From a virus: a DNA stretch of 64,000 nt. A program made the translations under genes and the position numbers. The DNA is taken from positions 1-64,000 of IMG/VR virus record IMGVR_UViG_3300007639_000002; one strand, 5' to 3'. The notes beneath the pieces are model-generated. The model searched no databases and was not told the origin of the DNA. It saw only the letters and a list, made by a program, of their open reading frames with translations. This document shows positions 5,230 through 56,000 of this stretch, piece by piece. Every line of letters starts with the position of its first letter. The stretch's first letter is position 1.

Positions 5230-6735
5230 TTAAAAGGTTTCTTTGACTTGGTTACCGCCAACAAACTGTGTGACGGAGATGACGATAAATTCAGCAGGTG
5301 CCTGAAGTGCAACGCCAATTTCTACGTGAACTTCACCAACTTCCATAGTGCCGTTTGTGTTGTTCGTGCTGTCACATGTGATGTAATAGGCTTCAGCCGC
5401 ACTACGCCCCTTCAAGCCACCCTGTGCCCAGAAGTTTGAAAGGAAGTTTGCAAGACGGGCTGAGATGTCAGACCACAAACGCTCACCGTTTGGCTCAAAT
5501 ACTGCAAATTGAGTTAATGCTTCCGCATTAGACTTAATGTAATTAAGGCTACGACGAACAGGTACATACTTTGTAATATCAGTCTTCTTAAGGGTGCGAG
5601 CACCATTTACAATAACGCCAGCGCCGGGAACACCCTTAAGGGTGTTGATATTGGAACTGTACAACGTGCCAATTTCTGCTTCGGTGAATGAGTTCACAAG
5701 ACCAAAACAGTTACGCACATCGTATGAATAACCAGCAGGTGCCTTAGCAACTCCACGCTCTGTGTCTACACGAGTGTAAAGACCAGCAAGTGCACCACCG
5801 GGGTAGGTGTCACGAAGTGCAGCAGTTCCTGATGTTGCAGGGTTTGACATCTTCAGCATTGGGTAATACACAGCGGCGTAAGATGAAACTGTGTAACCGG
5901 CAACGGCACTTAAAGCGCCTGCGCTAGTTGTAGCAGTTGCTAATGGATCAATAATTAAGAACGAGTTGCCACGTCCTTCAACATACGCAATTGCACCGTT
6001 GATAATCGTAGAGTTTGACTTACCTACAAGGTTGAAAAGGAGTTGACCCTGTACGGAATCAAAACCAGACAATGCGCTGGACCACGCAGTTTGCGTAGCA
6101 CCGGCGGTGTCGTCAGTCAAAGCAGCACCGGCAGCACCGGCGGTCAAAGTAGCGGTAGCACTAGTTACTGTGTAACTAGCACCAGCAAGGGAGGCTACGT
6201 TGAAAGTTCGGACATATGTAGAGTACGTATTGATAACGTTGTTAACAAAACGATTATTGTCAGGATCAAGACTAAGTTCACTCCAACGTTCTACTTCAGT
6301 ACCACTGTTTTTAACAACAATATTAAAAGTAGGTGTTGAACCTGTAACTAATCCACTTGAGATTTCGCTGGTTAAAGAGTTACCCCATGTACCAACGTTT
6401 GCTGCACGAACAGAAAACACAGTTCCAGAACTGTTACTGAAGGTTCCCGCAACGGTTGCTGCTGCGCTAGAAGCACCTGCACCTGCAACACGTGCAACAT
6501 AGGCAGTACGCCCACCATTTGCAAAGTAGTGGTAAACGGCATAACCTAAATCATATGAACTTGAAAGGTCACCAAAAAGTGATTTATAAGTACCCCAAGA
6601 ATCAACAAGGGTTGGTGTAGTTGGTCCACGGGAAGACGTGCCTAAAAAGGCAGTAGCAGTGGTGGTAGGACCGGTCACTACGGCGGTAGCAAAAGGTCCT
6701 TCGGTTACGTAAACACCGGGTGAGGTGTAAGCCAT
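5230..6735 (-). CDS. Tail sheath protein
   Basis: SPGVYVTE, YFANGG, KAPAG, GARTL, YVPVRR, VFEPN and PAEFI sheath motifs. Confidence 0.95.
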   Translation of the reverse strand: MAYTSPGVYVTEGPFATAVVTGPTTTATAFLGTSSRGPTTPTLVDSWGTYKSLFGDLSSSYDLGYAVYHYFANGGRTAYVARVAGAGASSAAATVAGTFSNSSGTVFSVRAANVGTWGNSLTSEISSGLVTGSTPTFNIVVKNSGTEVERWSELSLDPDNNRFVNNVINTYSTYVRTFNVASLAGASYTVTSATATLTAGAAGAALTDDTAGATQTAWSSALSGFDSVQGQLLFNLVGKSNSTIINGAIAYVEGRGNSFLIIDPLATATTSAGALSAVAGYTVSSYAAVYYPMLKMSNPATSGTAALRDTYPGGALAGLYTRVDTERGVAKAPAGYSYDVRNCFGLVNSFTEAEIGTLYSSNINTLKGVPGAGVIVNGARTLKKTDITKYVPVRRSLNYIKSNAEALTQFAVFEPNGERLWSDISARLANFLSNFWAQGGLKGRSAAEAYYITCDSTNNTNGTMEVGEVHVEIGVALQAPAEFIVISVTQFVGGNQVKETF

Positions 6736-44985: not shown

Positions 44986-45163
44986 ATACCTAGTATAGGG
45001 CTATCTAGGCGTTGTTTTTTGGTTAGCGGATTTTTGGAATAGGGCTATTGGGCCACTGGGCTGCTAGAGGGGGGTGGGTCCTGCCGGGCCACCCAGTAGT
45101 AGCGGCGACTTAACCATGGGGGGTATCCACAGTATAGCACCGCTACCTTACTGGTCACGAATC

Positions 45164-45358
45164 CTAGGCGAGTAACAACTCCCTGTGCTTCCGAGCCACT
45201 TCCATGTCTAACAGGTTCACCAGTGCATGAGCCAGTACGTCGTACTCGGCTTCACGCCCTGCTAAGACTGCGCCAATATCATCCACCATTGTCTGCATCA
45301 CATCTACCAATGCGACTGCTGTAACCATTTGCTTGCTGAGTTGTTTTGTTGTTGTCAT
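45164..45358 (-). CDS. Cassette protein (MTTTK), leaderless
   Basis: ATG at predicted +1; stop is the repeat TAG. Confidence 0.75.
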   Translation of the reverse strand: MTTTKQLSKQMVTAVALVDVMQTMVDDIGAVLAGREAEYDVLAHALVNLLDMEVARKHRELLLA

Positions 45359-45397
45359 ACTGCCACCTTACCATGTCCCTGCTGGGAGTCACGATTC

Positions 45398-45589
45398 CTA
45401 GATTTCCTCTTCCCAGTCTGAGTTCAGGCGCTCCAATGCCCGCAGTTCCTCCGCCACATCAAATGCAGTAGCGCATGGTGTGCAGAAGTATAACTCAGTG
45501 AGCCACCTGTCCGAGTACATAGGCTCGTGCGTTGGGCTAGGTATTGGAGCGTTGCATTCAACGCAGGTGTTTTGTGTTGTCGTTGTCAT
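45398..45589 (-). CDS. Cassette protein with CxxC...CxxC, leaderless
   Basis: CVEC and CTPC; ATG at +1; repeat TAG stop. Confidence 0.75.
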   Translation of the reverse strand: MTTTTQNTCVECNAPIPSPTHEPMYSDRWLTELYFCTPCATAFDVAEELRALERLNSDWEEEI

Positions 45590-45631
45590 GCTTCCAACCT
45601 ATCACATGACCCTCTCAGGTCACGATTCCTA

Positions 45632-45651
45632 CATAATGAGAATGATTCTCA
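45632..45651. promoter_or_regulatory. Fur/Zur-like box
   Basis: 7-1-7 palindrome TGAGAATgATTCTCA; 15/19 match to GATAATGATAATCATTATC. Confidence 0.5.
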
Positions 45652-45656
45652 ACTAA

Positions 45657-45672
45657 TGTTCCACGTGGAACA
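45657..45672. promoter_or_regulatory. parS: parS site 2
   Basis: TGTTCCACGTGGAACA within a 20-bp palindrome. Confidence 0.75.
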
Positions 45673-45692
45673 TTCCTAGAGTTGGGGCTATA

Positions 45693-45708
45693 TGTTCCAC
45701 GTGGAACA
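45693..45708. promoter_or_regulatory. parS: parS site 3
   Basis: TGTTCCACGTGGAACA. Confidence 0.75.
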
Positions 45709-45766
45709 TTGGTGCGGAGCGTAGGCAGGTATCCACCTACCCACACCCACCCAGCCATTGCTGGCA

Positions 45767-45928
45767 CTACTTGGGAGCACATGATGCCCAGTGCTCCAAT
45801 GCCCACTCTGCCCATGCGTTATGATCCAATGCCCACATATCCAGCGTGACAGTCTCGTCACAATAAACGCAGTGAGCGTTCAAGTACTGTGGGCATTCCA
45901 TGTCGTTGATGTTCTGTGTTGTTGTCAT
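45767..45928 (-). CDS. Cassette protein (53 aa, Cys/His/Trp-rich), leaderless
   Basis: Hand-translated MTTTQNINDMECPQYLNAHCVYC...EHWASCAPK. Confidence 0.7.
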   Translation of the reverse strand: MTTTQNINDMECPQYLNAHCVYCDETVTLDMWALDHNAWAEWALEHWASCAPK

Positions 45929-45967
45929 GTAACCAACCTATCATCTAGTGGCTCTGAGTCACGATTC

Positions 45968-46135
45968 CTAGTCCCTGTATTCTTGGGCGTTGTTGTAGTG
46001 ATATAGAGCCATGGCGTACTGTTGCTTTTTCAGGTCTGCGTATTTGCAAACCTCTGCCCTGTCTGCGTATTTCTTGGACAATCCCATGTAGTAGTCGTAT
46101 TGCTCTTTATTGGTAAATTGTTTTGTTGTTGTCAT
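45968..46135 (-). CDS. Cassette protein (55 aa), leaderless
   Basis: Hand-translated MTTTKQFTNKEQYDYY...; repeat TAG stop. Confidence 0.7.
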   Translation of the reverse strand: MTTTKQFTNKEQYDYYMGLSKKYADRAEVCKYADLKKQQYAMALYHYNNAQEYRD

Positions 46136-46174
46136 GTCTCCAACCTATCACGCCACCCACGTGAGTGACGAATC

Positions 46175-46369
46175 CTAGATAAATATATTCTGATACTCAT
46201 TTTGCGCATAGTACTCAGTGCGTAACCTTTCAGCACTGTTCATGAACCTACCCTCAGCCCGTGTTAGACCATAGGTGTACTCATGTGCCTTTAATGCATT
46301 CATCAGGTCTTCCAAAGCCTGCATTATTTTGATCTCAGTATCTGATAGTTGCTGTTGCGTTGTTGTCAT
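46175..46369 (-). CDS. Cassette protein, leaderless
   Basis: MTTTQ; repeat TAG stop. Confidence 0.75.
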   Translation of the reverse strand: MTTTQQQLSDTEIKIMQALEDLMNALKAHEYTYGLTRAEGRFMNSAERLRTEYYAQNEYQNIFI

Positions 46370-46408
46370 GCTTCCACCTTACCCTAGGGTCACCTTTGGT
46401 GACGATTC

Positions 46409-46576
46409 CTAGAACCTTGTATCTGTCACTGGGCGAACCTGCATATCCCTATGGCTGAGCCAATAGACGTTGCAGGCTTGGCGACTGCCGACCATGACTA
46501 CACACTTACGTGAAGAGTCATAGACTTCATGTGCTTTAGTGCTGGGCTTTACCTTTTTCATTTGCGTTGTTGTCAT
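46409..46576 (-). CDS. Cassette protein (55 aa), leaderless
   Basis: Hand-translated MTTTQMKKVKPS...; repeat TAG stop. Confidence 0.7.
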   Translation of the reverse strand: MTTTQMKKVKPSTKAHEVYDSSRKCVVMVGSRQACNVYWLSHRDMQVRPVTDTRF

Positions 46577-46615
46577 ATCCACACCTTATCAGGTCACCCT
46601 GCTGGGTCACGAATC

Positions 46616-46864
46616 CTACTTCAGCATTGCTTTCAGTTCAGCCTTCACCACACGTGCCGTGTCTCCACGCCATGCAGATGCATTGCTGAGGAAATAGGCG
46701 ACGATATCCCTAGCGGAGTCGTACCCATATGAGCCACTGATAGAGTCCAGCGAACGCATAGCGTCTAGGTACGGCACAGCACCAAAGTATGGCTTTTTCC
46801 AGTCTGCACTAATGTCACGTGCAATGGTTGATATTGGGCGATGTTGTTGTTTTGTTGTTGTCAT
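46616..46864 (-). CDS. Cassette protein, leaderless
   Basis: RPISTIARDI...AVPYLDAM...YFLSNA..WRG; repeat TAG stop. Confidence 0.8.
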   Translation of the reverse strand: MTTTKQQHRPISTIARDISADWKKPYFGAVPYLDAMRSLDSISGSYGYDSARDIVAYFLSNASAWRGDTARVVKAELKAMLK

Positions 46865-46903
46865 GTAATTACCTTATCAGTTAGTCGGGTTAGGTCACGA
46901 ATC

Positions 46904-47113
46904 CTAGATGTTATGTCCATCTAGTTCAGTTATTTTGGCGATTGCCAAAGATAGTACAGGCTTCAGCCCTAAGAGGAACATCCACACGCCGATCATCTCA
47001 GTGCGTAGTTCATCATCCTTTAGGGCATCTTCCACGGCAGTGTTCCATTCACCGAGCCTGCCCAGTACTTCTAATGTTGATGGTAGTGGTTTGGTTGTTG
47101 TTGTCGTTGTCAT
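46904..47113 (-). CDS. Cassette protein (MTTTTTTK), leaderless
   Basis: ATG 47113 fits the +1 spacing; repeat TAG stop. Confidence 0.75.
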   Translation of the reverse strand: MTTTTTTKPLPSTLEVLGRLGEWNTAVEDALKDDELRTEMIGVWMFLLGLKPVLSLAIAKITELDGHNI

Positions 47114-47122
47114 GTTCACACC

Positions 47123-47314
47123 TTACCAGCCTGCTGGCTCTAGTGACGATTCCTGATGCTCTTCTACTAGGTTGTCGTAGCACCATGTGCATACGTCAGT
47201 TCCCCAGTCTTCAGGGTCAAATCCATTATGCCCATCCACGATAGGGATCAGCATAGAAGATGCTCCACACCGTTCGCAGGCTCCGATATAAATGTTGTTG
47301 TTGTTGTCGTTCAT
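47123..47314 (-). CDS. Cassette protein with CxxC...CxxC, leaderless
   Basis: CERC and CTWC; reads through a TAG-to-CAG repeat variant to the TAA of the next -10 box. Confidence 0.7.
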   Translation of the reverse strand: MNDNNNNIYIGACERCGASSMLIPIVDGHNGFDPEDWGTDVCTWCYDNLVEEHQESSLEPAGW

Positions 47315-47353
47315 GTAATCACCTTACCACCTAGGAGCGTTAGGTCACGAATC

Positions 47354-47587
47354 CTAGATACCTTTCATATCGCAGATGTAATTGTGGCGAGCGTCAAAGT
47401 ACCAGTCAGACTCTTGAAAGGCTTGCTCGTCGCTGGGCGTTCCATCCTGTGCATATGCCATGAACTCTGCCCAGTTATCTAGGTAGTCGTCAGAGCCAAT
47501 GTAGGACTCTTCCCATTCTTCTATATCTTCAGGTGTTACGACTAATTTAGCCGATTCCATGTCTTCCACAGATGTGTATGTGAACAC
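47354..47587 (-). CDS. Acidic cassette protein (leadered, GGAGG SD)
   Basis: CA-rich 5' UTR, SD and GTG; repeat TAG stop. Confidence 0.75.
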   Translation of the reverse strand: MFTYTSVEDMESAKLVVTPEDIEEWEESYIGSDDYLDNWAEFMAYAQDGTPSDEQAFQESDWYFDARHNYICDMKGI

Positions 47588-47646
47588 TATGTGCCTCCGT
47601 TGTTGTCGTTGTTGATAGTTCTAACTTAGCACGTCACCCTGCTGGG

Positions 47647-47826
47647 TCACGAATCCTGCCGTGTGTCCATGTTCCACAGAATGCACTTAGCATCTTTTAA
47701 GATGTTGTATAGATTCATCTCTTCCCATGTCATGCCATAGTACCCATCACGCTGGGTCAAATCAGCCATGAACATAGTAAGCGTTTCATACATTTCAGTG
47801 TTGGTTATTTTCTTTGCTGTTTTCAT
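47647..47826 (-). CDS. Cassette protein (59 aa), leaderless
   Basis: Hand-translated MKTAKKITNTEMY...; stops at the in-frame TGA inside the repeat. Confidence 0.7.
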   Translation of the reverse strand: MKTAKKITNTEMYETLTMFMADLTQRDGYYGMTWEEMNLYNILKDAKCILWNMDTRQDS

Positions 47827-47865
47827 ATCTTCACCTTACCATGTAGTCGGGTTGAGTCACGATTC

Positions 47866-47942
47866 CTAGTGGGTATATTTGGTTAGATTAGCCTCAATAT
47901 ACCAGTGAGGTGCTTTCCCCGCTAACCATGCGGGTTTTCGTT
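47866..47942 (-). ncRNA. Candidate double-pseudoknot small RNA cassette
   Basis: Own repeat promoter, no credible ORF; two hairpins whose loops (UGGUUA, GGUAUAU) pair with adjacent 3' tail segments (UAACCA, AUAUACC). Confidence 0.65.
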
Positions 47943-47981
47943 AATCCCAACTTACCATGATGGAGTGTTGGGTTACGATTC

Positions 47982-48050
47982 CTAATAAAGGATGGCATTC
48001 AATGCCTTAGGAGGTGTCATGAATGCCACCCTCTATTAGTTGTCGTCGTT
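47982..48050 (-). ncRNA. Candidate hairpin sRNA displaying anti-Shine-Dalgarno CACCUCCU
   Basis: Own repeat promoter; 20-bp stem with two G-U pairs on - strand; 18-nt loop. Confidence 0.6.
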
Positions 48051-48089
48051 AATCCCAACCTACCACGTGGGTAGGCTGGGTCACGATTC

Positions 48090-48296
48090 CTAGAGGCTGA
48101 TATGCGCTCCTGAGAGCAAGTCTTCAACCTCATTGCGGATGGTGTCGCTGATGCTGTCACTGAAAGATGAGTTATCAGTGAAATCGTATTCATGGAGGAT
48201 GTCGTTAATGCGATCCTCCAAAGCATCTACTACTTGGTTCATTACCTTGTCACTGATTGCATTGACAAGTTGATTAAGCAATTCTTCCATGGTCAT
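48090..48296 (-). CDS. Acidic cassette protein (leadered; also the C-terminal part of a 141-aa fusion)
   Basis: Own promoter at 48354, CA-rich leader, GAAAGG SD; repeat TAG stop. Confidence 0.7.
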   Translation of the reverse strand: MTMEELLNQLVNAISDKVMNQVVDALEDRINDILHEYDFTDNSSFSDSISDTIRNEVEDLLSGAHISL

Positions 48297-48515
48297 GTTG
48301 TTAGTGCCTTTCGTTGTTGTTGATGAGTTCACTTTATCAGGTGGTTGTACTGAGTCACGATTCCTAGACTCCATGGCGATTTGCTCTTCATGATACTCAC
48401 GTAATAACTCTACGGTATAGTTCATGTAGATACCCTTTGCCATGGCATCTTCTACTTCAGTCTTTGCCATTAGTAAATGGAACACTTTAAGTTGTTGTTG
48501 CGTTTCGTTGTTCAT
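48090..48515 (-). CDS. Leaderless cassette protein fused in frame through the 48354 repeat
   Basis: ATG 48515 at +1; repeat read as SRNRDS. Confidence 0.55.
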   Translation of the reverse strand: MNNETQQQLKVFHLLMAKTEVEDAMAKGIYMNYTVELLREYHEEQIAMESRNRDSVQPPDKVNSSTTTKGTNNMTMEELLNQLVNAISDKVMNQVVDALEDRINDILHEYDFTDNSSFSDSISDTIRNEVEDLLSGAHISL

Positions 48516-48554
48516 GTAAGCACCTTATCAGGTGACATTGTTAGGTCACGATTC

Positions 48555-48782
48555 CTAGCGAATCTCTACAACCCTGCCTAAGCAAGTGAGTAAGTTGCCT
48601 ACGCTCGTAGTGGTTTCCCCTGCCGTGGTGGTGATAACTGCATCATCACCCACTACTTCTACAGAGATAACCCTTGTAATGATTGGGCGTGAGACAGGTG
48701 TCCATGATGGAATGACGATAAACTCGCCTTCTATAATTTGGTCAGCCCGTACTGTGAATGCTGGTTGTTGTTTCGTTGTCAT
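48555..48782 (-). CDS. Cassette protein (small beta-rich), leaderless
   Basis: ATG at +1; repeat TAG stop. Confidence 0.75.
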   Translation of the reverse strand: MTTKQQPAFTVRADQIIEGEFIVIPSWTPVSRPIITRVISVEVVGDDAVITTTAGETTTSVGNLLTCLGRVVEIR

Positions 48783-48821
48783 GGTTTCACCTTATCATGT
48801 TGAGTTGGTAGGTCACGAATC

Positions 48822-49133
48822 CTAGTATGACCTGAACACGTAACCATCAAGTTCCCACACGTCACCACCTAGTTCTAGGTCACGTGCGAATGACTCATAG
48901 TCAAAGTATCCAGTTTTGACTGCTTCAGAAAAGATATCGTCTGCCAACTCTTCAGCGTACTCACGTACTGATGTGACTGCTACGTAGGCATCCTCAAATG
49001 CTGATACTTCGCTGTCGTAGTCTTTGGTTATGCCAAGGTTCCAGCAGTAGATGGCAAAGGCTTGCTCGTCTATGTTGTTGTCTTCTGCTACCTGTGCAAT
49101 TTCTGCGTTGCTGTATTTATGTGTTGTTTCCAT
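48822..49133 (-). CDS. ardA: ArdA-like antirestriction (DNA mimic) protein, leaderless
   Basis: Acidic; FEDAY, EYAEEL, YFDYESFARDL and GYVFR match the ArdA C-terminal signature. Confidence 0.78.
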   Translation of the reverse strand: METTHKYSNAEIAQVAEDNNIDEQAFAIYCWNLGITKDYDSEVSAFEDAYVAVTSVREYAEELADDIFSEAVKTGYFDYESFARDLELGGDVWELDGYVFRSY

Positions 49134-49172
49134 ACCTGTACCTTACCCTCTAGTAGTTGTTAGTCACGAATC

Positions 49173-49358
49173 CTAGAACGATGTTCCTACCAGCGCATTA
49201 TCAAATGTGCGATAGATTACAATGCTCCTAGTTTGGTCTATAGATTCCCACATGGATGCCAACCACGTTGGCAGGTGTGCATCATGCAGTGTGCGTATGT
49301 ACGTTTGGGGGTCACCCTCTAGTTGATATTGTACTTCTACTTTTTTCGTTGTTGTCAT
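49173..49358 (-). CDS. Cassette protein, leaderless
   Basis: MTTTKK; repeat TAG stop. Confidence 0.75.
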   Translation of the reverse strand: MTTTKKVEVQYQLEGDPQTYIRTLHDAHLPTWLASMWESIDQTRSIVIYRTFDNALVGTSF

Positions 49359-49397
49359 GGTTTCACCTTAGCATTCTGAGTTAGTGGGTCACGAATC

Positions 49398-49652
49398 CTA
49401 CAACTCAAAAGAATGCAGTATCTTAGACGTTTCGTCTTGTGAATGTTTATTGGATGTCCAAAAGTGAACCTCTGTACGTGTGTAGATACCACCATGGCAC
49501 ACCATGCCTAGGCGATTACGTGCTTCTTTTTCTGCACGTTCTTCATTGTCGTAGTCTGCACCACCTACGTAGTCTTCGTTGTTGTCCCAAAAGTGTACTG
49601 TGTACCCTGAAGCAATATCTTGATTCATGTTGTTGCCTTTCGTTGTTGTCAT
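49398..49652 (-). CDS. Cassette protein (leaderless ATG plus in-frame SD-led ATG at 49628)
   Basis: ATGACAACAACGAAAGGCAACAACATG. Confidence 0.75.
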   Translation of the reverse strand: MTTTKGNNMNQDIASGYTVHFWDNNEDYVGGADYDNEERAEKEARNRLGMVCHGGIYTRTEVHFWTSNKHSQDETSKILHSFEL

Positions 49653-49682
49653 GTAATCAACTTACCACGTGGTGGTGTTAGG

Positions 49683-50048
49683 TCACGAATGCAGTTCCCG
49701 CATTTTGACCAACCCAACCTGATAATTGGCGGTATTGGTCAAGTTAAGCCACCAGCCAGTGACGAATCCATTTTCGTATTCGTCACAGATATGCTCGTTG
49801 TATTCGCCATGCTCGGTGAGAAGATCACCCAGTAGTTCGTTGATGGATTCCCCTGCCCATTCACCTGATAGTGGTGATGGTGGCATGAAATCGTCGGGGA
49901 GATCACACTCGTCATATAGGCGAAGGAACTCTACATATGTTTCCTGCGTAGTGTTACCGTCAAAGATCCATGATGATGCATTCTTGCCAGCAACTAATCC
50001 ACGAATGTATGCATCATATGCATCAGTTGTTTTGGTTGTTGTGTCCAT
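49683..50048 (-). CDS. Acidic cassette protein, leaderless
   Basis: PSPLSGEWAGES; ends at the TGA in the repeat. Confidence 0.75.
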   Translation of the reverse strand: MDTTTKTTDAYDAYIRGLVAGKNASSWIFDGNTTQETYVEFLRLYDECDLPDDFMPPSPLSGEWAGESINELLGDLLTEHGEYNEHICDEYENGFVTGWWLNLTNTANYQVGLVKMRELHS

Positions 50049-50057
50049 GTGAGTACC

Positions 50058-50282
50058 TTACCCTGCCTTGATGTCCAGTGACGAATCCTGCCATACTTCT
50101 TTGTCTTCTTTAAGTTTGTATGCCCATTTGTATGCTGTGTTCATTGCTGTCCACATTTGGCTGTATGGGGAATTGAATGAGTCTTCTTGATGAGCGTGTA
50201 AGTTGTAGCACACTGATTCCAGTGCATCTATCGCATTAAATAGTTCTTCAAGTGTCATGTCTTCGTTGATGTCGTGTTTCAT
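50058..50282 (-). CDS. Cassette protein, leaderless
   Basis: ATG at +1; reads through a CAG repeat variant. Confidence 0.7.
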   Translation of the reverse strand: MKHDINEDMTLEELFNAIDALESVCYNLHAHQEDSFNSPYSQMWTAMNTAYKWAYKLKEDKEVWQDSSLDIKAG

Positions 50283-50321
50283 GTTGTCACCTTATCATTT
50301 TGTTGTTGGTAGTCACGAATC

Positions 50322-50831
50322 CTATCCATACACCACCTCACCAAAGAGAATGAATTGCAGAATGGAGTCTGCTGTGAGAGCGTCGTACCAACCATCAAAG
50401 GCATCATCATCGTTGAAATAGATGGCACGTAAGCATTGCAACGCAGTCTTACCCAGTTGTCCATGGTCAGGTACGTTCTCCTGTGAGAACTCACCTGTGC
50501 CTACCTTGACGATAAAATCTATAACCATTTGCTCGTTGATAGGGTAAGCCTTGCCATAGGTGAACCATTCATCCCAGTCGTTTATTCCTTCTTGAAAACC
50601 ATGTTCTTTGTTGGCATACAGTGGGTGGGTTTTGTCCACCTCTGTTACTTCTTCTTCTACGTAGATGGTTGCGCTACAGTACTGATCAGTGTTACCCAAT
50701 TCGTACTCTCCGTTTGCACTTCCCCATTTGTAGTTCTTGCGAATCGCCCAGTACCCACATCCTAGTTCCAAAGCATCTGTAAGAATTGTGCAGGCTCCGT
50801 ATGTCATTTGTTGTTTATTTGCTGTTGTCAT
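50322..50831 (-). CDS. Acidic cassette protein, leaderless
   Basis: GCGYWA and DALTADSILQFILFGEVVYG motifs; repeat TAG stop. Confidence 0.8.
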   Translation of the reverse strand: MTTANKQQMTYGACTILTDALELGCGYWAIRKNYKWGSANGEYELGNTDQYCSATIYVEEEVTEVDKTHPLYANKEHGFQEGINDWDEWFTYGKAYPINEQMVIDFIVKVGTGEFSQENVPDHGQLGKTALQCLRAIYFNDDDAFDGWYDALTADSILQFILFGEVVYG

Positions 50832-50870
50832 GTCATCAACTTATCAGGTGAGTGTGCTGAGTCACGAATC

Positions 50871-51329
50871 CTACCAACTACTTTGATAGGAGAACTGGTA
50901 CTCTTCGTCAAGAGACAGCGCATTTTTAATGATGGAAATTGAGTACTCTAGGCTCTCAAAGTACCACTCGTCGTACTCAATGTTGCCAAAGAAGAAACCA
51001 CTAGCGGTGGGTAACAGGTCATCGGCAAGGCTATGGTCACCTAGAACCTGTTCGCAGACGTTCATTAACTCCGCAAGTTTCTCACGTGACACGTATGCAT
51101 CTTGGCATTCATCTACGCCATCCTGTACGTTGTCCACGAACCACTGGTGGATGGCGTTGGCTTTACGCCAGTAGCCCACCATGCACCGTACTGTGATAGA
51201 TGGATAGTCAGTGTCTAGTTCAATGTCTAATACTTTCCTGACTGCATGGTACGCTTCATTAACGTCGTCACCGTAGTGTGATGCTGGTGAGAGGTAGCGT
51301 TCTGCTTTGAGGTACTGATCTAATCCCAT
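50871..51329 (-). CDS. Phage protein of MGLDQY...YWRKAN...YQSSW type, leadered
   Basis: Recognisable recurring phage motif set; CA-rich leader with AAAGGA SD. Confidence 0.8.
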   Translation of the reverse strand: MGLDQYLKAERYLSPASHYGDDVNEAYHAVRKVLDIELDTDYPSITVRCMVGYWRKANAIHQWFVDNVQDGVDECQDAYVSREKLAELMNVCEQVLGDHSLADDLLPTASGFFFGNIEYDEWYFESLEYSISIIKNALSLDEEYQFSYQSSW

Positions 51330-51402
51330 GTTGTTATCCTTTTGTTGTTGGTTGTTGTTACTGAAGTTACTTTATCATGTTGTTGTTATGAGTGGCGAAT
51401 CC

Positions 51403-51475
51403 TGTGGAATACACCGATTTCTACGACTAGGGGAAACAACAACGAAACCCTAGGAGCAAACCGATGTACTCCACA
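51403..51475 (-). ncRNA. Candidate hairpin RNA with loop antisense to the cassette (ACA)n starts
   Basis: 18-bp stem with three G-U pairs, inner 6-bp stem, loop UUUCGUUGUUGUUUC. Confidence 0.55.
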
Positions 51476-51479
51476 TGAC

Positions 51480-51674
51480 TCACCACTCATGTTCTTGTAT
51501 AGATAATATCAGCACTAATGCGTTAAACATCAACAATATGCTAAGAAAACCTAAGAGCAAATTACCTGTATTTTCCATACCACCCATGAACCCAATGCTC
51601 AGGATGATAAGAGGCAGAATACAGCGTTTCTTTGTACGTGTCCAGCGATACCAGTTGGTCACCCTGATCCTCAT
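51480..51674 (-). CDS. Two-TM membrane protein
   Basis: Hydrophobic helices; ATGA coupling. Confidence 0.65.
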   Translation of the reverse strand: MRIRVTNWYRWTRTKKRCILPLIILSIGFMGGMENTGNLLLGFLSILLMFNALVLILSIQEHEW

Positions 51675-51919
51675 AACTCTTCCCCGTTTTCGTCAGTGAA
51701 GATCAGGTCAGAGATATCTGTCTGATGACCCCAGCCACATGAAAAATCATCAGTCTTGGCAAGATGTTCAATGTGCTGAACAACATCGTCTAACGTGATG
51801 TCCATGTCTTCATCTATGTCACTATTGAGAGTCCTGATGTCTTTGATTACGTCGTACACGTCATAAGTTATTACTTTTGTAACGTTGATGTACTTGGGTA
51901 GTTCTGTTGTTTCGTTCAT
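51671..51919 (-). CDS. Acidic cassette protein, leaderless
   Basis: ATG 51919 fits the +1 spacing. Confidence 0.75.
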   Translation of the reverse strand: MNETTELPKYINVTKVITYDVYDVIKDIRTLNSDIDEDMDITLDDVVQHIEHLAKTDDFSCGWGHQTDISDLIFTDENGEEL

Positions 51920-51958
51920 ATCCATACCTTATCTTGTTGTTAGTGTTAGTCACGAATC

Positions 51959-52360
51959 CTAGATATTGGCTTCCCAGTCAATATCAGAGTCATAAATGTC
52001 AATGCCAAAACGTGAGTCCCAACGCCATACTTCCTCAAAGGCAACGGTATCTGCACGAACCATTACCCTGCCACGAATGAAACCCTCTTCAGGATTAGTC
52101 TCGTCTGCGTTCCATTGTTTCACGTACTCACCTACACACTCGTACACGTAGCCCTGTAGGGCATCTACGTGCTGTGGGTTATCTAAACACCATGTGTTTT
52201 CTATCACGTCTACGAGCATCCCCATGACCATTAGTTTTGGGTTGCTTTCGCACATATTTATGATGCGATTGAGCATACGCTCTATTTCGCTTGCTGGTAA
52301 TACACCATCCCAGTACGCCATGGTTTCTTGCTCGTAGTACAAGCCTTCACAGCCATCCAT
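51959..52360 (-). CDS. Acidic hypothetical protein
   Basis: TAATG coupling; repeat TAG stop. Confidence 0.7.
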   Translation of the reverse strand: MDGCEGLYYEQETMAYWDGVLPASEIERMLNRIINMCESNPKLMVMGMLVDVIENTWCLDNPQHVDALQGYVYECVGEYVKQWNADETNPEEGFIRGRVMVRADTVAFEEVWRWDSRFGIDIYDSDIDWEANI

Positions 52361-52809
52361 TATGCTTCCAAATCTTCTAGTGGGTACAACACCTTACGTG
52401 CGTACACTTCTTCAATAGCGTCAAGAAGAACCTCATGGTAGTTGCTCCATGCTTTTTCATTGGAAATAGCAAACGCTGAAATAATCTCTAGTGTTTCTTT
52501 ATCAACATCAAAAGCCCATACAACAGAGTCTTTGATATCGGGATCGGGAGTACCCCAATGAACTTCTAATTCTTCACGAATAGAGGCAGGTGAGTAACAA
52601 ACGCTGTTGCTGTAGTTCACGTCACCCCATCCTGTATGGTCACCCATAAACTTCAATGAGATGCCATGCTTACGTGCAATGTTAGATATTTCTTCGTCAG
52701 AAAATGCTTCTAAGGCTGACTCTTCTGATGTAAGGTCATCAGTATCAACGATATAGCAGTTGTCTGCATTAACAATAGTTCCTGATTGTGCGTCAATAAG
52801 TAATTTCAT
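52360..52809 (-). CDS. Acidic cassette protein, leaderless
   Basis: TAAGGT-N6-ATG. Confidence 0.75.
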   Translation of the reverse strand: MKLLIDAQSGTIVNADNCYIVDTDDLTSEESALEAFSDEEISNIARKHGISLKFMGDHTGWGDVNYSNSVCYSPASIREELEVHWGTPDPDIKDSVVWAFDVDKETLEIISAFAISNEKAWSNYHEVLLDAIEEVYARKVLYPLEDLEA

Positions 52810-52825
52810 AGTTGTACCTTAGCCT

Positions 52826-53068
52826 TCAGAGGCTGTTACTCACGAATCCTAGTTTGTCAAGGATAGCGTCACGTACCCATTCAATATCAGGACAAATCTC
52901 ACATACATCGTACTGATTGCATATTTCTGCCCATGCATCTTTGGTAAGTACTTCATAATCATCATCGTCATAAAGGCTTGATGCCCATTCGTATGAGTAG
53001 ATGTCACAACAGATGTCGTCGTCATCTTTTAAGTTTGCGATAATCTCTTTTAAGGTTGATACCTTCAT
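52826..53068 (-). CDS. Acidic hypothetical protein
   Basis: AGAGGA SD; reads through a repeat. Confidence 0.7.
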   Translation of the reverse strand: MKVSTLKEIIANLKDDDDICCDIYSYEWASSLYDDDDYEVLTKDAWAEICNQYDVCEICPDIEWVRDAILDKLGFVSNSL

Positions 53069-53205
53069 GTTGTTTCCTCTATTAGTTTTTCTAGTTTGTT
53101 AATGAGTTCTAGCATTTCATCTGTCAATGGACTGCACCACGTTGTCTTAACGTTACGTAGTTCTGTCAATAGCAGGTGTAAGCCAAAATCTAATTGCTGT
53201 GTCAT
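53065..53205 (-). CDS. Cassette protein (46 aa)
   Basis: Hand-translated MTQQLDFGLHLLLTELRNVK...; short AGAGG leader from promoter 53247. Confidence 0.6.
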   Translation of the reverse strand: MTQQLDFGLHLLLTELRNVKTTWCSPLTDEMLELINKLEKLIEETT

Positions 53206-53483
53206 TGTGTTACCTCTACATTCACTATATTATGAACAGAGCCTGAGTCACGAATCCTAGAGAACGTGCTACCTTTTGTCGGGTCTGTGCGGATGAAATA
53301 GAATGAGTCTGCCCACTGATGGATATCGTCGGCAATGTCTTCATTCATGGCGACTACCTGCCCATGCTCATGGTCAATATAGACTGCCAGTTCACCGTCT
53401 TCTGTTATATACAATCCGATATACCAATCGCCCATCATTATCTGTGCGGAGTTATCGGTTTGCTCAATGTAGTTGTTACTCAT
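53202..53483 (-). CDS. Hypothetical protein
   Basis: ATGA coupling; reads through repeat 53247. Confidence 0.65.
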   Translation of the reverse strand: MSNNYIEQTDNSAQIMMGDWYIGLYITEDGELAVYIDHEHGQVVAMNEDIADDIHQWADSFYFIRTDPTKGSTFSRIRDSGSVHNIVNVEVTQ

Positions 53484-53725
53484 AAACAGAACCCATTACA
53501 ACGTGGGAATCCGCAGGCTGGGCAGTAAGACTCTTCTTCTTCTTCTTCTTCGTCTTTTGTGATGCCAAAGATGGTATAACCAGCCTCAACCAAAAGGTCA
53601 GCAACTAGGTCTAATGACTCACCATCGGTGTACTCGTACTCTAGGTCTTTGGGATTAGAACCTTCAACACGCTTTTCTAAGATGTTGATGATTTCTTGAA
53701 TGAGTTCGTCGTTTGCTGTTGTCAT
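53480..53725 (-). CDS. Acidic cassette protein with C-terminal Cys cluster, leaderless
   Basis: MTTAN; CPACGFPRCNGFC. Confidence 0.75.
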   Translation of the reverse strand: MTTANDELIQEIINILEKRVEGSNPKDLEYEYTDGESLDLVADLLVEAGYTIFGITKDEEEEEEESYCPACGFPRCNGFCL

Positions 53726-53734
53726 ATCATCAAC

Positions 53735-54016
53735 TTACCATACTGGTGGTGCTAGGTCAGGATTCCTGAGAGAAGAGGTATTTGGGATTACGTCACAGTT
53801 CATTAAATAAATGGCGTTGCTGAGTAGTGATGAAAGTTCATCTTCATTGTCAATGTACTCCCCGTCACCAAGATAAGCAACAGACCATTCATGTGTGTCG
53901 TTGTGCTGTACTGTGCCGTCAGAGAAATGCTCTTCCTCAGCGTTAGTATCCCATTCCCACTTGTTGGTGGATGAATCGTATGAGACTATGAAATAGTGTG
54001 TATGGTTTCCGTTCAT
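53735..54016 (-). CDS. Acidic hypothetical protein
   Basis: Start re-assigned to the SD-led ATG 54016. Confidence 0.65.
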   Translation of the reverse strand: MNGNHTHYFIVSYDSSTNKWEWDTNAEEEHFSDGTVQHNDTHEWSVAYLGDGEYIDNEDELSSLLSNAIYLMNCDVIPNTSSLRNPDLAPPVW

Positions 54017-54174
54017 TGTGTTACTTCCTCTATGTCTGTTGTGTTCCATGTTTCTTGCTCGTCTACACACCATGACTCGTTGCTGTCAAAGAGTTGTTTA
54101 GCCTGTTCAATGCTGTCGGCATCTACTTCGTGGCGGTAGTGAGTTACTTTTTCGTATGTGAGTGTGTACTTCAT
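54013..54174 (-). CDS. Small acidic protein (EVDADSIEQA type)
   Basis: Start re-assigned to ATG 54174; similar to neighbour 54171-54365. Confidence 0.6.
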   Translation of the reverse strand: MKYTLTYEKVTHYRHEVDADSIEQAKQLFDSNESWCVDEQETWNTTDIEEVTQ

Positions 54175-54365
54175 GCTGGTTCTTCCTCTTCTACATCTTC
54201 TACATCCCATGGAGTGTTCCACTCACGAAAGCCCCACATATCTTTTGACTCTAAATCGTCATCTGTGAACTTATCGTAAGCCTCTAGCGCACCCTCTTCT
54301 GAGTCTGCTTTAATTTCGTAGCAGTGGCTAATTACTTCATCTACACGTACTAAATAAGTTTTCAT
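54171..54365 (-). CDS. Small acidic protein (EIKADSEEGA type)
   Basis: GAAAGGA SD after CA-rich leader. Confidence 0.7.
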   Translation of the reverse strand: MKTYLVRVDEVISHCYEIKADSEEGALEAYDKFTDDDLESKDMWGFREWNTPWDVEDVEEEEPA

Positions 54366-54425
54366 GTTGTTCCTTTCGTTGTCGTTATTTACAACTTACC
54401 ATTAGAAGTGTGTTGGTCACGAATC

Positions 54426-54845
54426 CTACGTAGCGTCACTCATGACGAATGCCGATACACAAGCCTGCTCGTACTCTTCTGCATTGCGTACCCCATAGAA
54501 GAAATGGTCACCAGCACCTGTAGTAATCTCTGCCCACGTCATCAGTGAGTCTGTTGTGATGTCTCCATTGTCTAGGATCACTGTTCCCCACATAGCGTCG
54601 GCAACAGACATGACGTACTCTTTAATGTTTTCAGCCATATCAAAATGATCTACGTAGTCAATACGCCACCTGCCTTCACAGGGGAACCCACTCTCTAGGT
54701 CTACTGGCTCATTCTCATTGGCAGGTATAAACCCCACAAGTGTAATGTCATCTACATTCTCCACCAGCATTGCTAGGCGGTCATACTTTTGGTTAGAGTC
54801 CGATGGCACTACGCACCTCTTCTTCGCAGGCTTCACGTGCTTCAA
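54426..54845 (-). CDS. Acidic hypothetical protein (start uncertain, possibly 54770)
   Basis: Repeat TAG stop. Confidence 0.6.
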   Translation of the reverse strand: MKHVKPAKKRCVVPSDSNQKYDRLAMLVENVDDITLVGFIPANENEPVDLESGFPCEGRWRIDYVDHFDMAENIKEYVMSVADAMWGTVILDNGDITTDSLMTWAEITTGAGDHFFYGVRNAEEYEQACVSAFVMSDAT

Positions 54846-55392
54846 TGTATGCGTTGTCTACACGCTCCCACATGGTGTCCATGTCAGTATCCTCAAAACT
54901 ACCCTCTACCGTGATGTTCTCTGTGAACGAAGAATGCCATTGACCGTCATGGTATGAACTAGCACCTGCAAAGCCCATGCCCTGCTCGTCATAAGACAAA
55001 ACAAACTTAAAGTTTGGATACAACGTAGAGATATGCTCAAAAGCCTTTTCGGGTGGTGCCCATGCTGAGTTGAAGTAAAACGAACGGTAGCCGATGTCTT
55101 CGCCACCCATCTCAGTATCGTAATCACCCCACTTGGTTCCCCAGTTGTCACAACACCAGTCGTACCAATCCTTGTGACCGTACTTGGCGATGTTCGCCTC
55201 TTGTTGTATGCGATGCTCTTCTGCTTTATCTGCACCCATGAAGCCTGCCACTGTCTCGTATAGTTCTGTAGGGCAAGGGTAAAGAGAACGTATGATCTTT
55301 ATACGCCCGTCTACTGTGATGTCTTCTACAAACTTCTGTAGTGCTAATTCGTTACCCCATACGTAGAGGTTATTACTGCAATCGTTAGGCAT
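54793..55392 (-). CDS. DUF1281/YubB ferredoxin-like domain protein
   Basis: MPNxCxN, WYDWC.DNWGTKW, F.SAWAPP and YDEQGMGFAG motifs. Confidence 0.75.
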   Translation of the reverse strand: MPNDCSNNLYVWGNELALQKFVEDITVDGRIKIIRSLYPCPTELYETVAGFMGADKAEEHRIQQEANIAKYGHKDWYDWCCDNWGTKWGDYDTEMGGEDIGYRSFYFNSAWAPPEKAFEHISTLYPNFKFVLSYDEQGMGFAGASSYHDGQWHSSFTENITVEGSFEDTDMDTMWERVDNAYIEAREACEEEVRSAIGL

Positions 55393-55726
55393 TTACTTTC
55401 CAATCTTCTATGATGCGGTTATTTTTCATGTCTTTTACAAGTAGGCGTACCCACTCAGACGTATTTGCAAATCCAACTTCTTCGCCGTCGTCGTACTCAA
55501 CTGGGTACACGGTGACCATGATGTTTTCATCACCGAACTCATCGTTATAGTCCCATGCAAAAGTGTTGAAATCAAAAGCCAAATCCCCGATGATGATAGA
55601 TTCCCATGCATCTTCGTCGCCAGTGAACTTACGGCGAGAACGGTGATTCTTCTTAAGTATCTTGTAAGCGTGTTTCATTAACGCTTTTTTATTTTGTTTA
55701 ATGTCTTGAAGAGTTGATGTTTTCAT
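55385..55726 (-). CDS. Cassette protein, leaderless
   Basis: ATG at +1 of repeat 55756. Confidence 0.75.
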   Translation of the reverse strand: MKTSTLQDIKQNKKALMKHAYKILKKNHRSRRKFTGDEDAWESIIIGDLAFDFNTFAWDYNDEFGDENIMVTVYPVEYDDGEEVGFANTSEWVRLLVKDMKNNRIIEDWKVNA

Positions 55727-55765
55727 ATATGCACCTTATCATTGAGAGTGGTTGAGTCACGAATC

Positions 55766-55972
55766 CTATTGCTGTTCAATAAGAAAAGATGGGCGTTCAA
55801 TAGTTGAGTGAGTACCCTCTACGACTGTGATGCCGTAGTGAACTTCACCCCAACCTAAAATGTCTGTAGGGTCATTGCCTAACAATGCTTCGTACACAAG
55901 GTCTTGTGCCTGCATTTCGTTCTTGGCTTTGACAAAGTATGTTCCTGTTGCTGTTACTGTGTAGTAGTTCAT
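55766..55972 (-). CDS. Cassette protein, leaderless
   Basis: ATG at +1 of repeat 56002; repeat TAG stop. Confidence 0.75.
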   Translation of the reverse strand: MNYYTVTATGTYFVKAKNEMQAQDLVYEALLGNDPTDILGWGEVHYGITVVEGTHSTIERPSFLIEQQ

Positions 55973-56000
55973 ACCGCCACTTTAACTCACGTGATGGCTG

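What the first reader, a model, noticed from the sequence alone, without database searches (positions are those of the whole stretch)
47866..47942. Non-coding cassette with a compact double pseudoknot
Seen: about 77 nt from its own repeat promoter: AACGAAAA CCCGC AUGGUUA GCGGG GAAAGCA CCUCA CUGGUAUAU UGAGG CUAAUC UAACCA A AUAUACC CACUAG. Loop 1 (UGGUUA) is complementary to tail UAACCA and loop 2 (GGUAUAU) to the adjacent AUAUACC, so nearly every segment has a partner. It shares GTTGGGATTAACGA around +1 with the neighbouring RNA cassette. Established: pseudoknotted RNAs serve as type III antitoxins (ToxI, mimicked by some phages), small ribozymes and nuclease blocks. I cannot match it to a known family. 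Inference: a novel structured RNA, possibly an anti-defence decoy.
Basis: partly seen in the sequence, partly recalled or inferred. Interest (0 to 1): 0.8.

Follow-up and report, generated by a model that had tools for sequence, protein, structure and literature searches.

The report
New double-pseudoknot RNA module of phages
A 63-base stretch of this phage folds into two interlocked RNA pseudoknots and belongs to an uncatalogued RNA family shared by about a dozen lineages of uncultured phages, often a few bases ahead of a tRNA or tRNA-like gene, where it most likely caps and protects RNA ends.

Summary
On the minus strand, 47934..47872 has two 5-bp hairpins. Their loops pair with one contiguous 3' tail (6 bp and 7 bp). 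A copy of the phage's repeated promoter lies just upstream.

It is a real, conserved RNA. I found about 17 distinct copies in about 12 uncultured phage lineages. On a 9-sequence alignment, 97% of cells pair. 12 of 23 pairs show compensatory changes, spread over all four helices; slid controls give 2 or fewer. No Rfam family matches, and there is no conserved ORF.

Context points to a role. In about seven copies the fold ends 4-7 nt before the 5' end of a genuine tRNA or a tRNA/tmRNA-like element. Others lie just before the next gene's promoter-like region. My best reading (about 0.4) is a non-terminating 3'-end cap: it shields the upstream RNA from 3' exonucleases after RNase P or other cleavage. 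This resembles the MALAT1 triple helix plus mascRNA. Function is untested.

The "anti-defence decoy" idea has no support: no ToxI-like repeats and no ToxN. An RNA-library contig spans the element, which is weak evidence of transcription.

It was not followed up.

The parts
47949..47983 (-). Copy of the array's repeated promoter: -35-like motif 47983..47972, 17-nt spacer, -10 hexamer 47954..47949. Predicted +1 at 47942.
   Evidence: One of about 30 copies with fixed spacing on this strand. The motif gives 34 matches against 3.4 expected. Aligned; coordinates checked. Promoter activity is inferred, not shown.
47935..47942 (-). 8-nt single-stranded leader from the predicted +1 to the first helix.
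   Evidence: It shares 14 nt around +1 with the neighbouring non-coding cassette.
47918..47934 (-). Hairpin P1: 5-bp stem (47934..47930 with 47922..47918) and a 7-nt loop. The last 6 loop bases (47928..47923) are the 5' strand of PK1.
   Evidence: 3 of 5 P1 pairs have compensatory changes, and 97.8% of cells pair.
47911..47917 (-). A-rich linker 1. It is placed where loop 3 of an H-type pseudoknot runs along the minor groove of P1.
   Evidence: A GAAA-like start is kept in most close homologues (alignment A5) but not in distant ones. The tertiary role is inferred.
47892..47910 (-). Hairpin P2: 5-bp stem (47910..47906 with 47896..47892) and a 9-nt loop. The last 7 loop bases (47903..47897) are the 5' strand of PK2.
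   Evidence: 3 of 5 P2 pairs have compensatory changes, and 100% of cells pair.
47886..47891 (-). Linker 2.
   Evidence: An AAUG-like motif is common here in homologues but absent in the window copy.
47872..47885 (-). Contiguous 3' tail: PK1 3' strand 47885..47880, one A at 47879, then PK2 3' strand 47878..47872.
   Evidence: PK1: 2 of 6 pairs compensatory, 100% paired. PK2: 4 of 7 pairs compensatory, 92% paired. About nine different PK1 helices and eleven different PK2 helices occur across the family, all complementary. The spacer is an A in every copy with a one-base spacer; it is absent or longer in a few.
47856..47871 (-). 3-nt tail (47871..47869), then the next promoter repeat (47868..47856). 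That repeat drives the 59-aa ORF 47826..47647.
   Evidence: No terminator-like site on this strand between the fold and the next gene.
47984..48050 (-). Neighbouring non-coding cassette upstream: a long hairpin whose loop carries an anti-Shine-Dalgarno-like sequence. It is probably co-transcribed with the fold.
   Evidence: One RNA-library contig covers 47813..48041 without a mismatch.

Best explanation
The element is one copy of a modular, self-contained RNA fold (DPK). It consists of two classical H-type pseudoknots interlaced on one 14-nt 3' tail.

I propose that it works as a non-terminating 3'-end cap. Transcription runs through it. When the transcript is later cut just downstream, the compact fold with only a 4-7-nt overhang stops 3'-to-5' exonucleases, so the RNA upstream survives. 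The cut is made by RNase P where a tRNA or tRNA-like element follows, or by another endonuclease elsewhere.

In this window the protected RNA would be the fold's own short transcript and the anti-Shine-Dalgarno hairpin RNA made from the promoter upstream. Both would be insulated from decay of the downstream mRNA in an array that has no terminators.

Shown: the fold, its conservation, and its recurrent position. Inferred: RNase P cleavage, exonuclease blocking, and the role in this window.
For: 1. The fold is real.
- 97.1% of cells pair, and 12 of 23 pairs have compensatory changes, spread over all four helices. With partners slid by 1-3 columns, 2 or fewer pairs do.
- G-U pairs appear in several copies. 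They would be A-C mismatches on the other strand, which fixes the strand.

2. Few unpaired bases are conserved in distant copies. This fits a role that depends on shape rather than a catalytic or ligand-binding core.

3. Position.
- In about 7 of about 17 distinct copies the last pseudoknot pair lies 4-7 nt before the first base of a tRNA-type element.
- One case is a genuine tRNA-Arg: L147, fold 6721..6656, tRNA 6650..6577.
- The others are tRNA/tmRNA-like elements in L006, L028, L090, L112, L117 and L105.
- One such element type reaches the Rfam tmRNA gathering score (47.3 against 47 bits).
- Established knowledge: RNase P makes the 5' ends of tRNA and tmRNA.

4. In L147 the order is gene, fold, tRNA, terminator. 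RNase P cleavage would separate the mRNA from its terminator hairpin, and the fold sits exactly where a substitute 3' protector is needed.

5. Other copies lie at the 3' end of non-coding units, just before the next gene's promoter-like region (window; L092; third copy in L090), or in tandem (L090).

6. No U-tract follows the fold, and one RNA-library contig reads through it (47813..48041). This is consistent with 'protects but does not terminate'.

7. Precedent: the MALAT1 3' end is made by RNase P at a tRNA-like element and is protected by an adjacent triple helix (PMC8457004).
Against: - No RNA 3' or 5' ends were mapped. Contigs cannot show ends.
- The window copy has no tRNA-like element after it. 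Its own promoter would place it 8 nt from a transcript's 5' end, which suits a 5' protector equally well.
- Several copies are internal to non-coding islands with no obvious cleavage site after them (L017, L102, L104, L006 second copy).
- PK2 is AU-rich and of modest stability.
- The tRNA-like elements were not called by ARAGORN, so RNase P cleavage there is an inference.
- Copies found with my four-helix descriptor were selected for pairing. They count only for breadth and context, not for the covariation evidence.
Confidence: 0.4

Rival explanations
1. A trans-acting decoy or sponge. The fold, released by promoter start and processing, binds and blocks a host or phage protein such as a defence nuclease, an RNA chaperone or a tRNA-directed toxin.
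For: - It has its own promoter in an early-gene array, next to another non-coding cassette.
- It is a compact fold with few conserved unpaired bases, as expected for a shape-recognised ligand.
- It travels with tRNA-like elements that could themselves be decoys.
Against: - No partner gene travels with it; the neighbours differ in every lineage.
- No ToxI-like repeats and no ToxN.
- The strict 4-7-nt spacing to tRNA 5' ends, and its placement after genes, are not explained by a decoy role.
Confidence: 0.17
2. A 5'-end protector or leader. It sits 8 nt from the predicted start and shields the transcript that continues into the downstream genes from 5'-end-dependent decay (RNase J or RNase E). 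Alternatively it tunes translation of the downstream gene.
For: - The predicted +1 is 8 nt before P1.
- There is no terminator before the next gene, and an RNA-library contig runs from the upstream cassette through the fold into the next ORF.
- The portal protein is 52-53% identical to that of Streptomyces phage BRock. This suggests an actinobacterial host. Established knowledge: actinobacteria have RNase J.
Against: - In about 7 homologues the fold would be cut away from the downstream tRNA-type RNA by RNase P, so it cannot protect that RNA.
- The downstream gene has its own promoter and a leaderless start.
- None of the other roughly 30 cassettes has such a leader.
Confidence: 0.12
3. A helper for tRNA or tmRNA-like maturation. 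As a structured 5' leader it guides, times or blocks RNase P processing or folding of the element that follows. Under this reading the window copy is an orphan.
For: Tight 4-7-nt spacing to the 5' end of tRNA-type elements in about 7 copies, including a genuine tRNA-Arg.
Against: - Most copies, the window's included, have no tRNA-type element after them.
- Other tRNAs in the same contigs lack the fold.
- The window copy is kept with a full promoter.
Confidence: 0.1
4. A real RNA family, but the window copy is a passenger. It would be a fragment of a non-coding island captured between two promoter repeats, with no role in this phage.
For: - The window has no tRNA-like partner and no homologue of the ~340-aa gene that precedes the fold elsewhere.
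- The 3' flank keeps the short motif that precedes tRNA-like elements in L006 and L028.
Against: - All 23 base pairs are intact.
- It carries a complete promoter copy.
- The region is present in an RNA library.
Confidence: 0.1
5. A ligand-sensing riboswitch or a small self-cleaving ribozyme.
For: Many riboswitch aptamers and ribozymes are pseudoknotted. The topology of PK1 (the loop of the first hairpin pairs with the tail after a second hairpin) recalls the fluoride and preQ1-II aptamers. This comparison is from my own knowledge.
Against: - No Rfam riboswitch or ribozyme family matches, even at E<=10.
- The linkers vary freely in distant copies and almost no unpaired base is invariant.
- No regulated gene consistently lies downstream.
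- The helix order differs from HDV-like ribozymes.
Confidence: 0.05

Closest known systems
MALAT1 / MEN-beta 3'-end module (ENE triple helix followed by the tRNA-like mascRNA, cut by RNase P; PMC8457004)
   Same: A compact tertiary structure lies immediately upstream of a tRNA-like RNase P substrate. The upstream RNA therefore gets a defined 3' end without a terminator or poly(A), and that end is tucked into the structure. About 7 of about 17 copies of this family have that arrangement, with a 4-7-nt spacer.
   Different: - The structure here is a pair of interlaced H-type pseudoknots, not a U-rich/A-rich triple helix.
- It occurs in phages, not in vertebrate nuclei.
- The window copy lacks the tRNA-like partner.
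- Protection is not shown.
Exoribonuclease-resistant RNAs (xrRNA) of flaviviruses and plant viruses
   Same: Small pseudoknotted viral folds in which a hairpin loop pairs with a downstream tail. Both are sometimes duplicated in tandem, and both are proposed to stop an exonuclease mechanically.
   Different: xrRNAs block 5'-to-3' Xrn1 with a ring around the 5' end. Here there is no three-way junction and no Rfam match, and the context suggests protection from the 3' side.
Upstream pseudoknot domain plus tRNA-like structure at the 3' end of tobamovirus and tymovirus RNAs
   Same: A row of H-type pseudoknots directly upstream of a tRNA-like structure, downstream of a coding region.
   Different: Those are 3'-terminal elements of RNA virus genomes with an aminoacylatable end, and their pseudoknots are consecutive, not interlaced. 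Here the elements are DNA-phage transcripts, and the tRNA-like part lies after the knots as a separate processing unit.
HDV-like ribozymes, including the theta ribozymes next to phage tRNAs (PMC10879173)
   Same: A double pseudoknot of similar size, in phages, adjacent to tRNA genes.
   Different: - The helix order is different: here a-b-a'-c-d-c'-b'-d'. In HDV-like ribozymes (order from my own knowledge) it is P1, P2, P3, P3', P1', P4, P4', P2'.
- There is no P3/L3/P1.1 core and no conserved catalytic C.
- Theta ribozymes are linked to tRNA 3'-trailer processing. This fold lies 5' of tRNAs.
- No Rfam match.
ToxI and other type III antitoxin RNAs
   Same: Small pseudoknotted RNAs with a role in phage-host conflict, which phages can mimic.
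   Different: ToxI-type RNAs are tandem arrays of identical 34-45-nt units next to a ToxN-type toxin gene. Here there is a single 63-nt unit, no array and no ToxN.
tmRNA pseudoknots (PK1-PK4)
   Same: H-type pseudoknots associated with a tRNA-like domain of the tmRNA type. One partner element reaches the Rfam tmRNA score.
   Different: tmRNA knots lie between the two halves of the tRNA-like domain and are not interlaced. This fold lies outside, 5' of the acceptor stem. No tmRNA is called in the window.

Membership tests
Classical H-type pseudoknot (two of them, interlaced) | A hairpin whose loop pairs with a downstream strand. Loop 1 of 1-2 nt spans a 6-7-bp second stem, there is no spacer before the stem's 3' strand, and a longer loop 3 follows. 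| tested here: met
   Coordinates: loop 1 is 1 nt for PK1 (6 bp) and 2 nt for PK2 (7 bp). Pairing is kept by covariation. The three-dimensional stacking is inferred.
ToxI / type III antitoxin RNA | Tandem array of near-identical 34-45-nt repeats. | tested here: not met
   Tandem Repeats Finder on 47000-49000 finds no such array. The two tandem copies in L090 are diverged full-length folds.
ToxI / type III antitoxin RNA | Adjacent ToxN-family endoribonuclease gene. A phage mimic may lack it. | tested here: not met
   PF13958 has no match in the 79-kb record at E<=1.
Any Rfam 15 family (riboswitches, ribozymes, xrRNA, ToxI, tmRNA, dinG RNA) | Covariance-model score at or above the family's gathering threshold. 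| tested here: not met
   - 0 matches in the window at gathering.
- Nothing relevant on the minus strand at E<=10 over 47780-48120.
- The best hit on a homologue is dinG RNA (RF03082) at 16.8 bits against a threshold of 46.9, E = 2.6.
HDV-like / theta ribozymes | Nested double pseudoknot with helix order P1, P2, P3, P3', P1', P4, P4', P2', plus P1.1 and a catalytic C. Theta ribozymes are linked to tRNA 3'-trailer processing. | tested here: not met
   The helix order here is a-b-a'-c-d-c'-b'-d'. The fold lies 5' of tRNAs. The 3'-trailer role of theta ribozymes is from PMC10879173.
Exoribonuclease-resistant RNA (xrRNA) | Stalls a processive exonuclease in vitro through a ring-like fold around the entering end. 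| not testable with these tools
   Needs an enzyme assay or a 3D structure. Only the loop-tail pseudoknot topology is shared.
MALAT1-type 3'-end module | A tRNA-like RNase P substrate immediately downstream of the protective structure. | tested here: inconclusive
   Met in about 7 homologues, with a 4-7-nt spacer to a genuine tRNA-Arg or to tRNA/tmRNA-like elements. Not met in the window, where a promoter repeat follows.
MALAT1-type 3'-end module | Triple helix formed by a U-rich internal loop (ENE) with a genomically encoded A-rich tract. | tested here: not met
   The sequence has no U-rich or A-rich tracts of that kind. The structure is two pseudoknots.
Protein-coding micro-ORF | An open frame conserved among homologues. 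| tested here: not met
   The AUG in loop 1 opens 11 codons in the window and 15 in L006 and L028, in another frame after an indel. It opens only 4 in L017 and L112, and is ACG in L090a (alignment A5).
Intrinsic terminator on the + strand | GC-rich hairpin followed by a T-run, kept in relatives. | tested here: not met
   The scan calls P1 plus TTTTCG on the + strand. The run is absent in L006, L017, L090, L112 and L117, and no + strand gene ends there.

The most novel reading that the evidence does not exclude
Phages have an RNA module that creates protected, terminator-free RNA 3' ends. It is an interlaced double pseudoknot that stalls 3'-to-5' exonucleases, placed 4-7 nt ahead of a tRNA or tRNA-like RNase P site. 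This would be a bacterial-virus counterpart of the MALAT1 triple helix plus mascRNA. In this phage it is re-used as a stand-alone, promoter-driven cassette that stabilises an anti-Shine-Dalgarno RNA. It would also be the first described compact fold that resists exonucleases from the 3' side.
Probability: 0.3. Interest if true: 0.85.

Novelty: categorically new. Interest (0 to 1): 0.72.

Why it matters
- **A new RNA fold.** It adds an uncatalogued, covariation-supported RNA fold to the small set of known compact viral RNA structures: two H-type pseudoknots sharing one tail. It also shows that the fold is a mobile module used by unrelated phages.
- **A testable rule.** If the end-cap model holds, genes and small RNAs can be co-transcribed with tRNAs or in terminator-free arrays and still keep stable 3' ends, because a knot sits 4-7 nt before an RNase P site.
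- **A possible tool.** A 63-nt non-terminating RNA stabiliser would be useful for synthetic operons.
- **A pointer to more.** It flags a rich, unexplored island of structured RNAs in 200-kb lake phages.

Tried and rejected
- **Rfam.** No family at gathering in the window or in homologous loci. Sub-threshold hits were chance: dinG RNA at 16.8 bits; microRNA models on the neighbouring hairpin; a 'Pistol' fragment in L006 that vanished when the full region was searched.
- **ARAGORN.** No tRNA or tmRNA in the window.
- **Nested MFE folding.** z = -0.69, uninformative for pseudoknots.
- **Cultured phages.** No DNA similarity. The ~340-aa gene that precedes the fold in lake phages has no cultured relative and no homologue in this phage.
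- **Bacterial genomes.** A strict pattern found nothing in 185,579 species genomes. This is no proof of absence.
- **Relatives of this phage.** A promoter-pattern scan found only one short relative contig (L119), and it does not reach the cassette. Streptomyces phage BRock shares the portal but not the promoter array.
- **Covariance model R1.** It finds only close copies and misses L092 and L102 even with filters off. A weak hit elsewhere in one 202-kb genome lies in ordinary AT-rich sequence and is not a fold.
- **Generalised descriptor.** It is too permissive for counting.
- **csRNA catalogue.** The supplement of the IMG/VR catalogue paper (PMC10690425) is not held, so I could not check whether the nested part of this motif is listed there.
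- **Metatranscriptome contigs.** They cover 47487-48041 but nothing else between 45000 and 49900 in four runs. Contigs cannot rank expression or show ends.

Full report
**Setting**

The window is the first 64 kb of a 79-kb IMG/VR virus record, estimated 86% complete. It encodes a tail sheath, an SPP1-type portal, a capsid protein and a terminase. The portal is 52-53% identical to that of Streptomyces phage BRock, so an actinobacterial host is likely. The DNA recurs in marine and riverine metagenomes.

Between 45 and 56 kb the minus strand carries about 30 copies of a 12-nt motif. Each is followed by a 17-nt spacer, a TAAGGT-like hexamer and, 6-7 nt later, usually an ATG (34 motif matches against 3.4 expected). 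Two adjacent cassettes have the promoter but no ORF:
- 48050..47984, a long hairpin with an anti-Shine-Dalgarno-like loop;
- 47942..47869, the finding.

**The observation**

- P1 is a 5-bp hairpin. Six of its seven loop bases pair with 47885..47880.
- P2 is a 5-bp hairpin. Seven of its nine loop bases pair with 47878..47872.
- The two tail segments are separated by a single A.

Each half is a classical H-type pseudoknot: a 1-2-nt first loop, no second loop, and an A-rich strand after the stem. The two are interlaced. The third loop of the first knot contains hairpin P2, and the third loop of the second knot contains the 3' strand of the first.

A strict descriptor for this architecture hits once in the window and never in 40 dinucleotide shuffles. 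Ordinary folding cannot see the structure (z = -0.69).

**Homologues**

- A 17-mer scan of IMG/VR gave true relatives in L006 and L017/L026 among chance terminator hairpins. Looser patterns added L028/L029.
- All of these lie downstream of a ~340-aa gene with an SSB-like acidic C-terminus. Fetching 27 loci around relatives of that gene showed two tandem, diverged copies in L090.
- A metagenome scan added L112, L117 and L115.
- A four-helix descriptor found diverged copies in the same islands (L092, L102). Its false-positive rate is about 4 per Mb.
- Inspection and a parser found a second copy in L017. They also found a variant with a 12-nt first loop in L006, L090, L104 and L105.
- A PK2-based scan found a copy in an unrelated 81-kb contig, L147.

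In all there are about 17 distinct copies in about 12 lineages. None turned up in cultured phages (DNA searches with window segments), and a strict pattern found none in 185,579 bacterial species genomes.

**Covariation**

The 9 sequences in this test were found by sequence or synteny, not by the descriptor.
- 97.1% of 204 cells form standard pairs.
- 12 of 23 pairs carry compensatory changes: P1 3, PK1 2, P2 3, PK2 4.
- No shuffle out of 500 reaches this, and sliding the partners by 1-3 columns leaves 0-2 such pairs.

Across the wider set there are about nine different PK1 helices and eleven different PK2 helices, all complementary. G-U pairs fix the strand.

The AUG in loop 1 does not open a conserved frame. 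The + strand terminator-like call at P1 is not conserved.

**What it is not**

- No Rfam 15 family matches.
- It is not ToxI-like: no repeat array and no ToxN.
- Its helix order differs from HDV-like and theta ribozymes, and those are linked to tRNA 3'-trailer processing, i.e. the 3' side of tRNAs (PMC10879173).
- It lies outside, not inside, the tmRNA-like elements.
- Distant copies share almost no unpaired bases, which argues against a catalytic or ligand-binding core.

**Context**

In the ~200-kb lake phages the fold is one module of a mosaic non-coding island after the SSB-like gene. The other modules are a small hairpin with a CCUCCU loop, a single H-type pseudoknot, a conserved 50-nt element, and tRNA-like elements with an acceptor stem and a T-arm. 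One type of these tRNA-like elements reaches the Rfam tmRNA threshold as a bare tRNA-like domain (47.3 bits).

- In L006, L028, L090 (second copy), L112, L117 and L105 the fold ends 4-7 nt before the first G of such an element.
- In L147 it ends 5 nt before a genuine tRNA-Arg. There the order is gene, fold, tRNA, strong terminator.
- In the window, in L092 and in the third L090 copy it lies just before the next gene's promoter-like region.
- Whole-record searches find close copies only in these islands.

**Mechanism**

RNase P cuts at the 5' end of tRNA and tmRNA (established knowledge). That cut would leave the upstream RNA ending in the fold plus 4-7 nt. It would also detach the upstream RNA from any terminator hairpin further down.

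From my own knowledge, 3' exonucleases need a longer single-stranded 3' tail to engage structured RNA. A compact knot that buries the 3' strand is therefore a plausible protector. The fold has no U-tract, and an RNA-library contig runs through it (47813..48041), so it would protect without terminating. That suits co-transcribed units and this phage's terminator-free array.

The closest precedent is the MALAT1 triple helix next to the RNase P-cleaved mascRNA (PMC8457004). I put this model at about 0.4.

For the window copy the cleavage that would create the end is unknown. A 5'-protective role (0.12), a decoy role (0.17), a tRNA-maturation role (0.10), a passenger copy (0.10) and a riboswitch or ribozyme (0.05) remain open.

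**Relation to earlier notes**

First readers of this genome noted the promoter array and the anti-Shine-Dalgarno hairpin. I confirmed the sequences but did not test their readings.

I confirmed that pairing in L028 and L090, and it was not followed up at the time.

Other follow-ups in this scan describe uncatalogued double-pseudoknot RNAs near phage tRNA genes or after genes. I could not compare sequences, so I cannot say whether any is the same family.

**Verdict**

This is a new, covariation-supported RNA family with a distinctive fold and a recurrent position that suggests RNA-end protection. Its function is untested.

Noticed in passing
window 47984-48050 (-); L028 6160-6185, L090 3492-3512: The upstream non-coding cassette is a long hairpin with an anti-Shine-Dalgarno-like loop. 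In the lake-phage islands a small hairpin with a CCUCCU-containing loop sits directly after the stop codon of the SSB-like gene, upstream of the fold, in the same order as in the window. The two window cassettes may have been acquired together from such an island.
   Followed up: partly
window 45150-56010 (-): The -10 region of the repeated promoter (GGTAAGGTG, 5-6 nt before the ATG) also looks like a Shine-Dalgarno site. A gene could then be translated leaderless from its own promoter and in the leadered mode from read-through transcripts. No terminators are seen between cassettes.
   Followed up: no
L006 4545-4592; L017 10600-10645; L094 about 3725-3775; L092 about 4060-4110: A separate conserved ~50-nt element. 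It has an outer stem that covaries (UAGGG/CCCUA against AAGGG/CCCUU), a small GCGU/ACGC hairpin and an ACAC-UGUG-GUGU hairpin. It recurs in different positions of the islands and matches no Rfam family.
   Followed up: partly
L028 6175-6215; L090 3505-3536; L099 and L100 just after the stop codon: A single H-type pseudoknot right after the SSB-like gene: a hairpin whose loop pairs with a strand after an AAAC-ending linker. It covaries between phages, for example UGAGCA/UGCUCA against UGGUCA/UGACCA against UGGACA/UGUCCA.
   Followed up: partly
L094 3644-3716; L100, L105, L117 and L006/L028/L090 downstream of the fold: tRNA-like elements with an acceptor stem and a T-arm but no anticodon arm, not called by ARAGORN. 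One type scores 47.3 bits on Rfam tmRNA as a bare tRNA-like domain and has a G3-U70 pair. They may be mini-tmRNA-like decoys or mere RNase P signals.
   Followed up: partly
L102 882-948 (+): A clear Pistol self-cleaving ribozyme (RF02679, 65.5 bits) lies upstream of the SSB-like gene in one lake-phage contig.
   Followed up: no
L006 about 4760-4995; L090 about 3870-3985; L092 about 3660-3830: A larger conserved non-coding RNA (about 200 nt) contains a GGGAAAGUC motif that recalls the RNase P RNA core, but has no Rfam match. In L006, L090, L104 and L105 the long-loop variant of the fold forms its 3' end.
   Followed up: no
window 25783-27270 (-): The phage encodes a full-length flavin-dependent tryptophan halogenase (PF04820, E = 3e-105), which is unusual cargo for a phage.
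   Followed up: no
window 47487-48041: In four riverine metatranscriptome runs from four studies, the only assembled contigs matching 45000-49900 fall in this 550-nt stretch: the two non-coding cassettes and the two small genes after them. All match at 100% identity. This is a weak hint of high expression; the runs were selected with this region.
   Followed up: partly
L119 900-1200: A 13-kb IMG/VR contig carries the same promoter motif, including the back-to-back divergent pair seen at window 56002/56014. It is the only relative of this phage's regulatory system that I found.
   Followed up: partly
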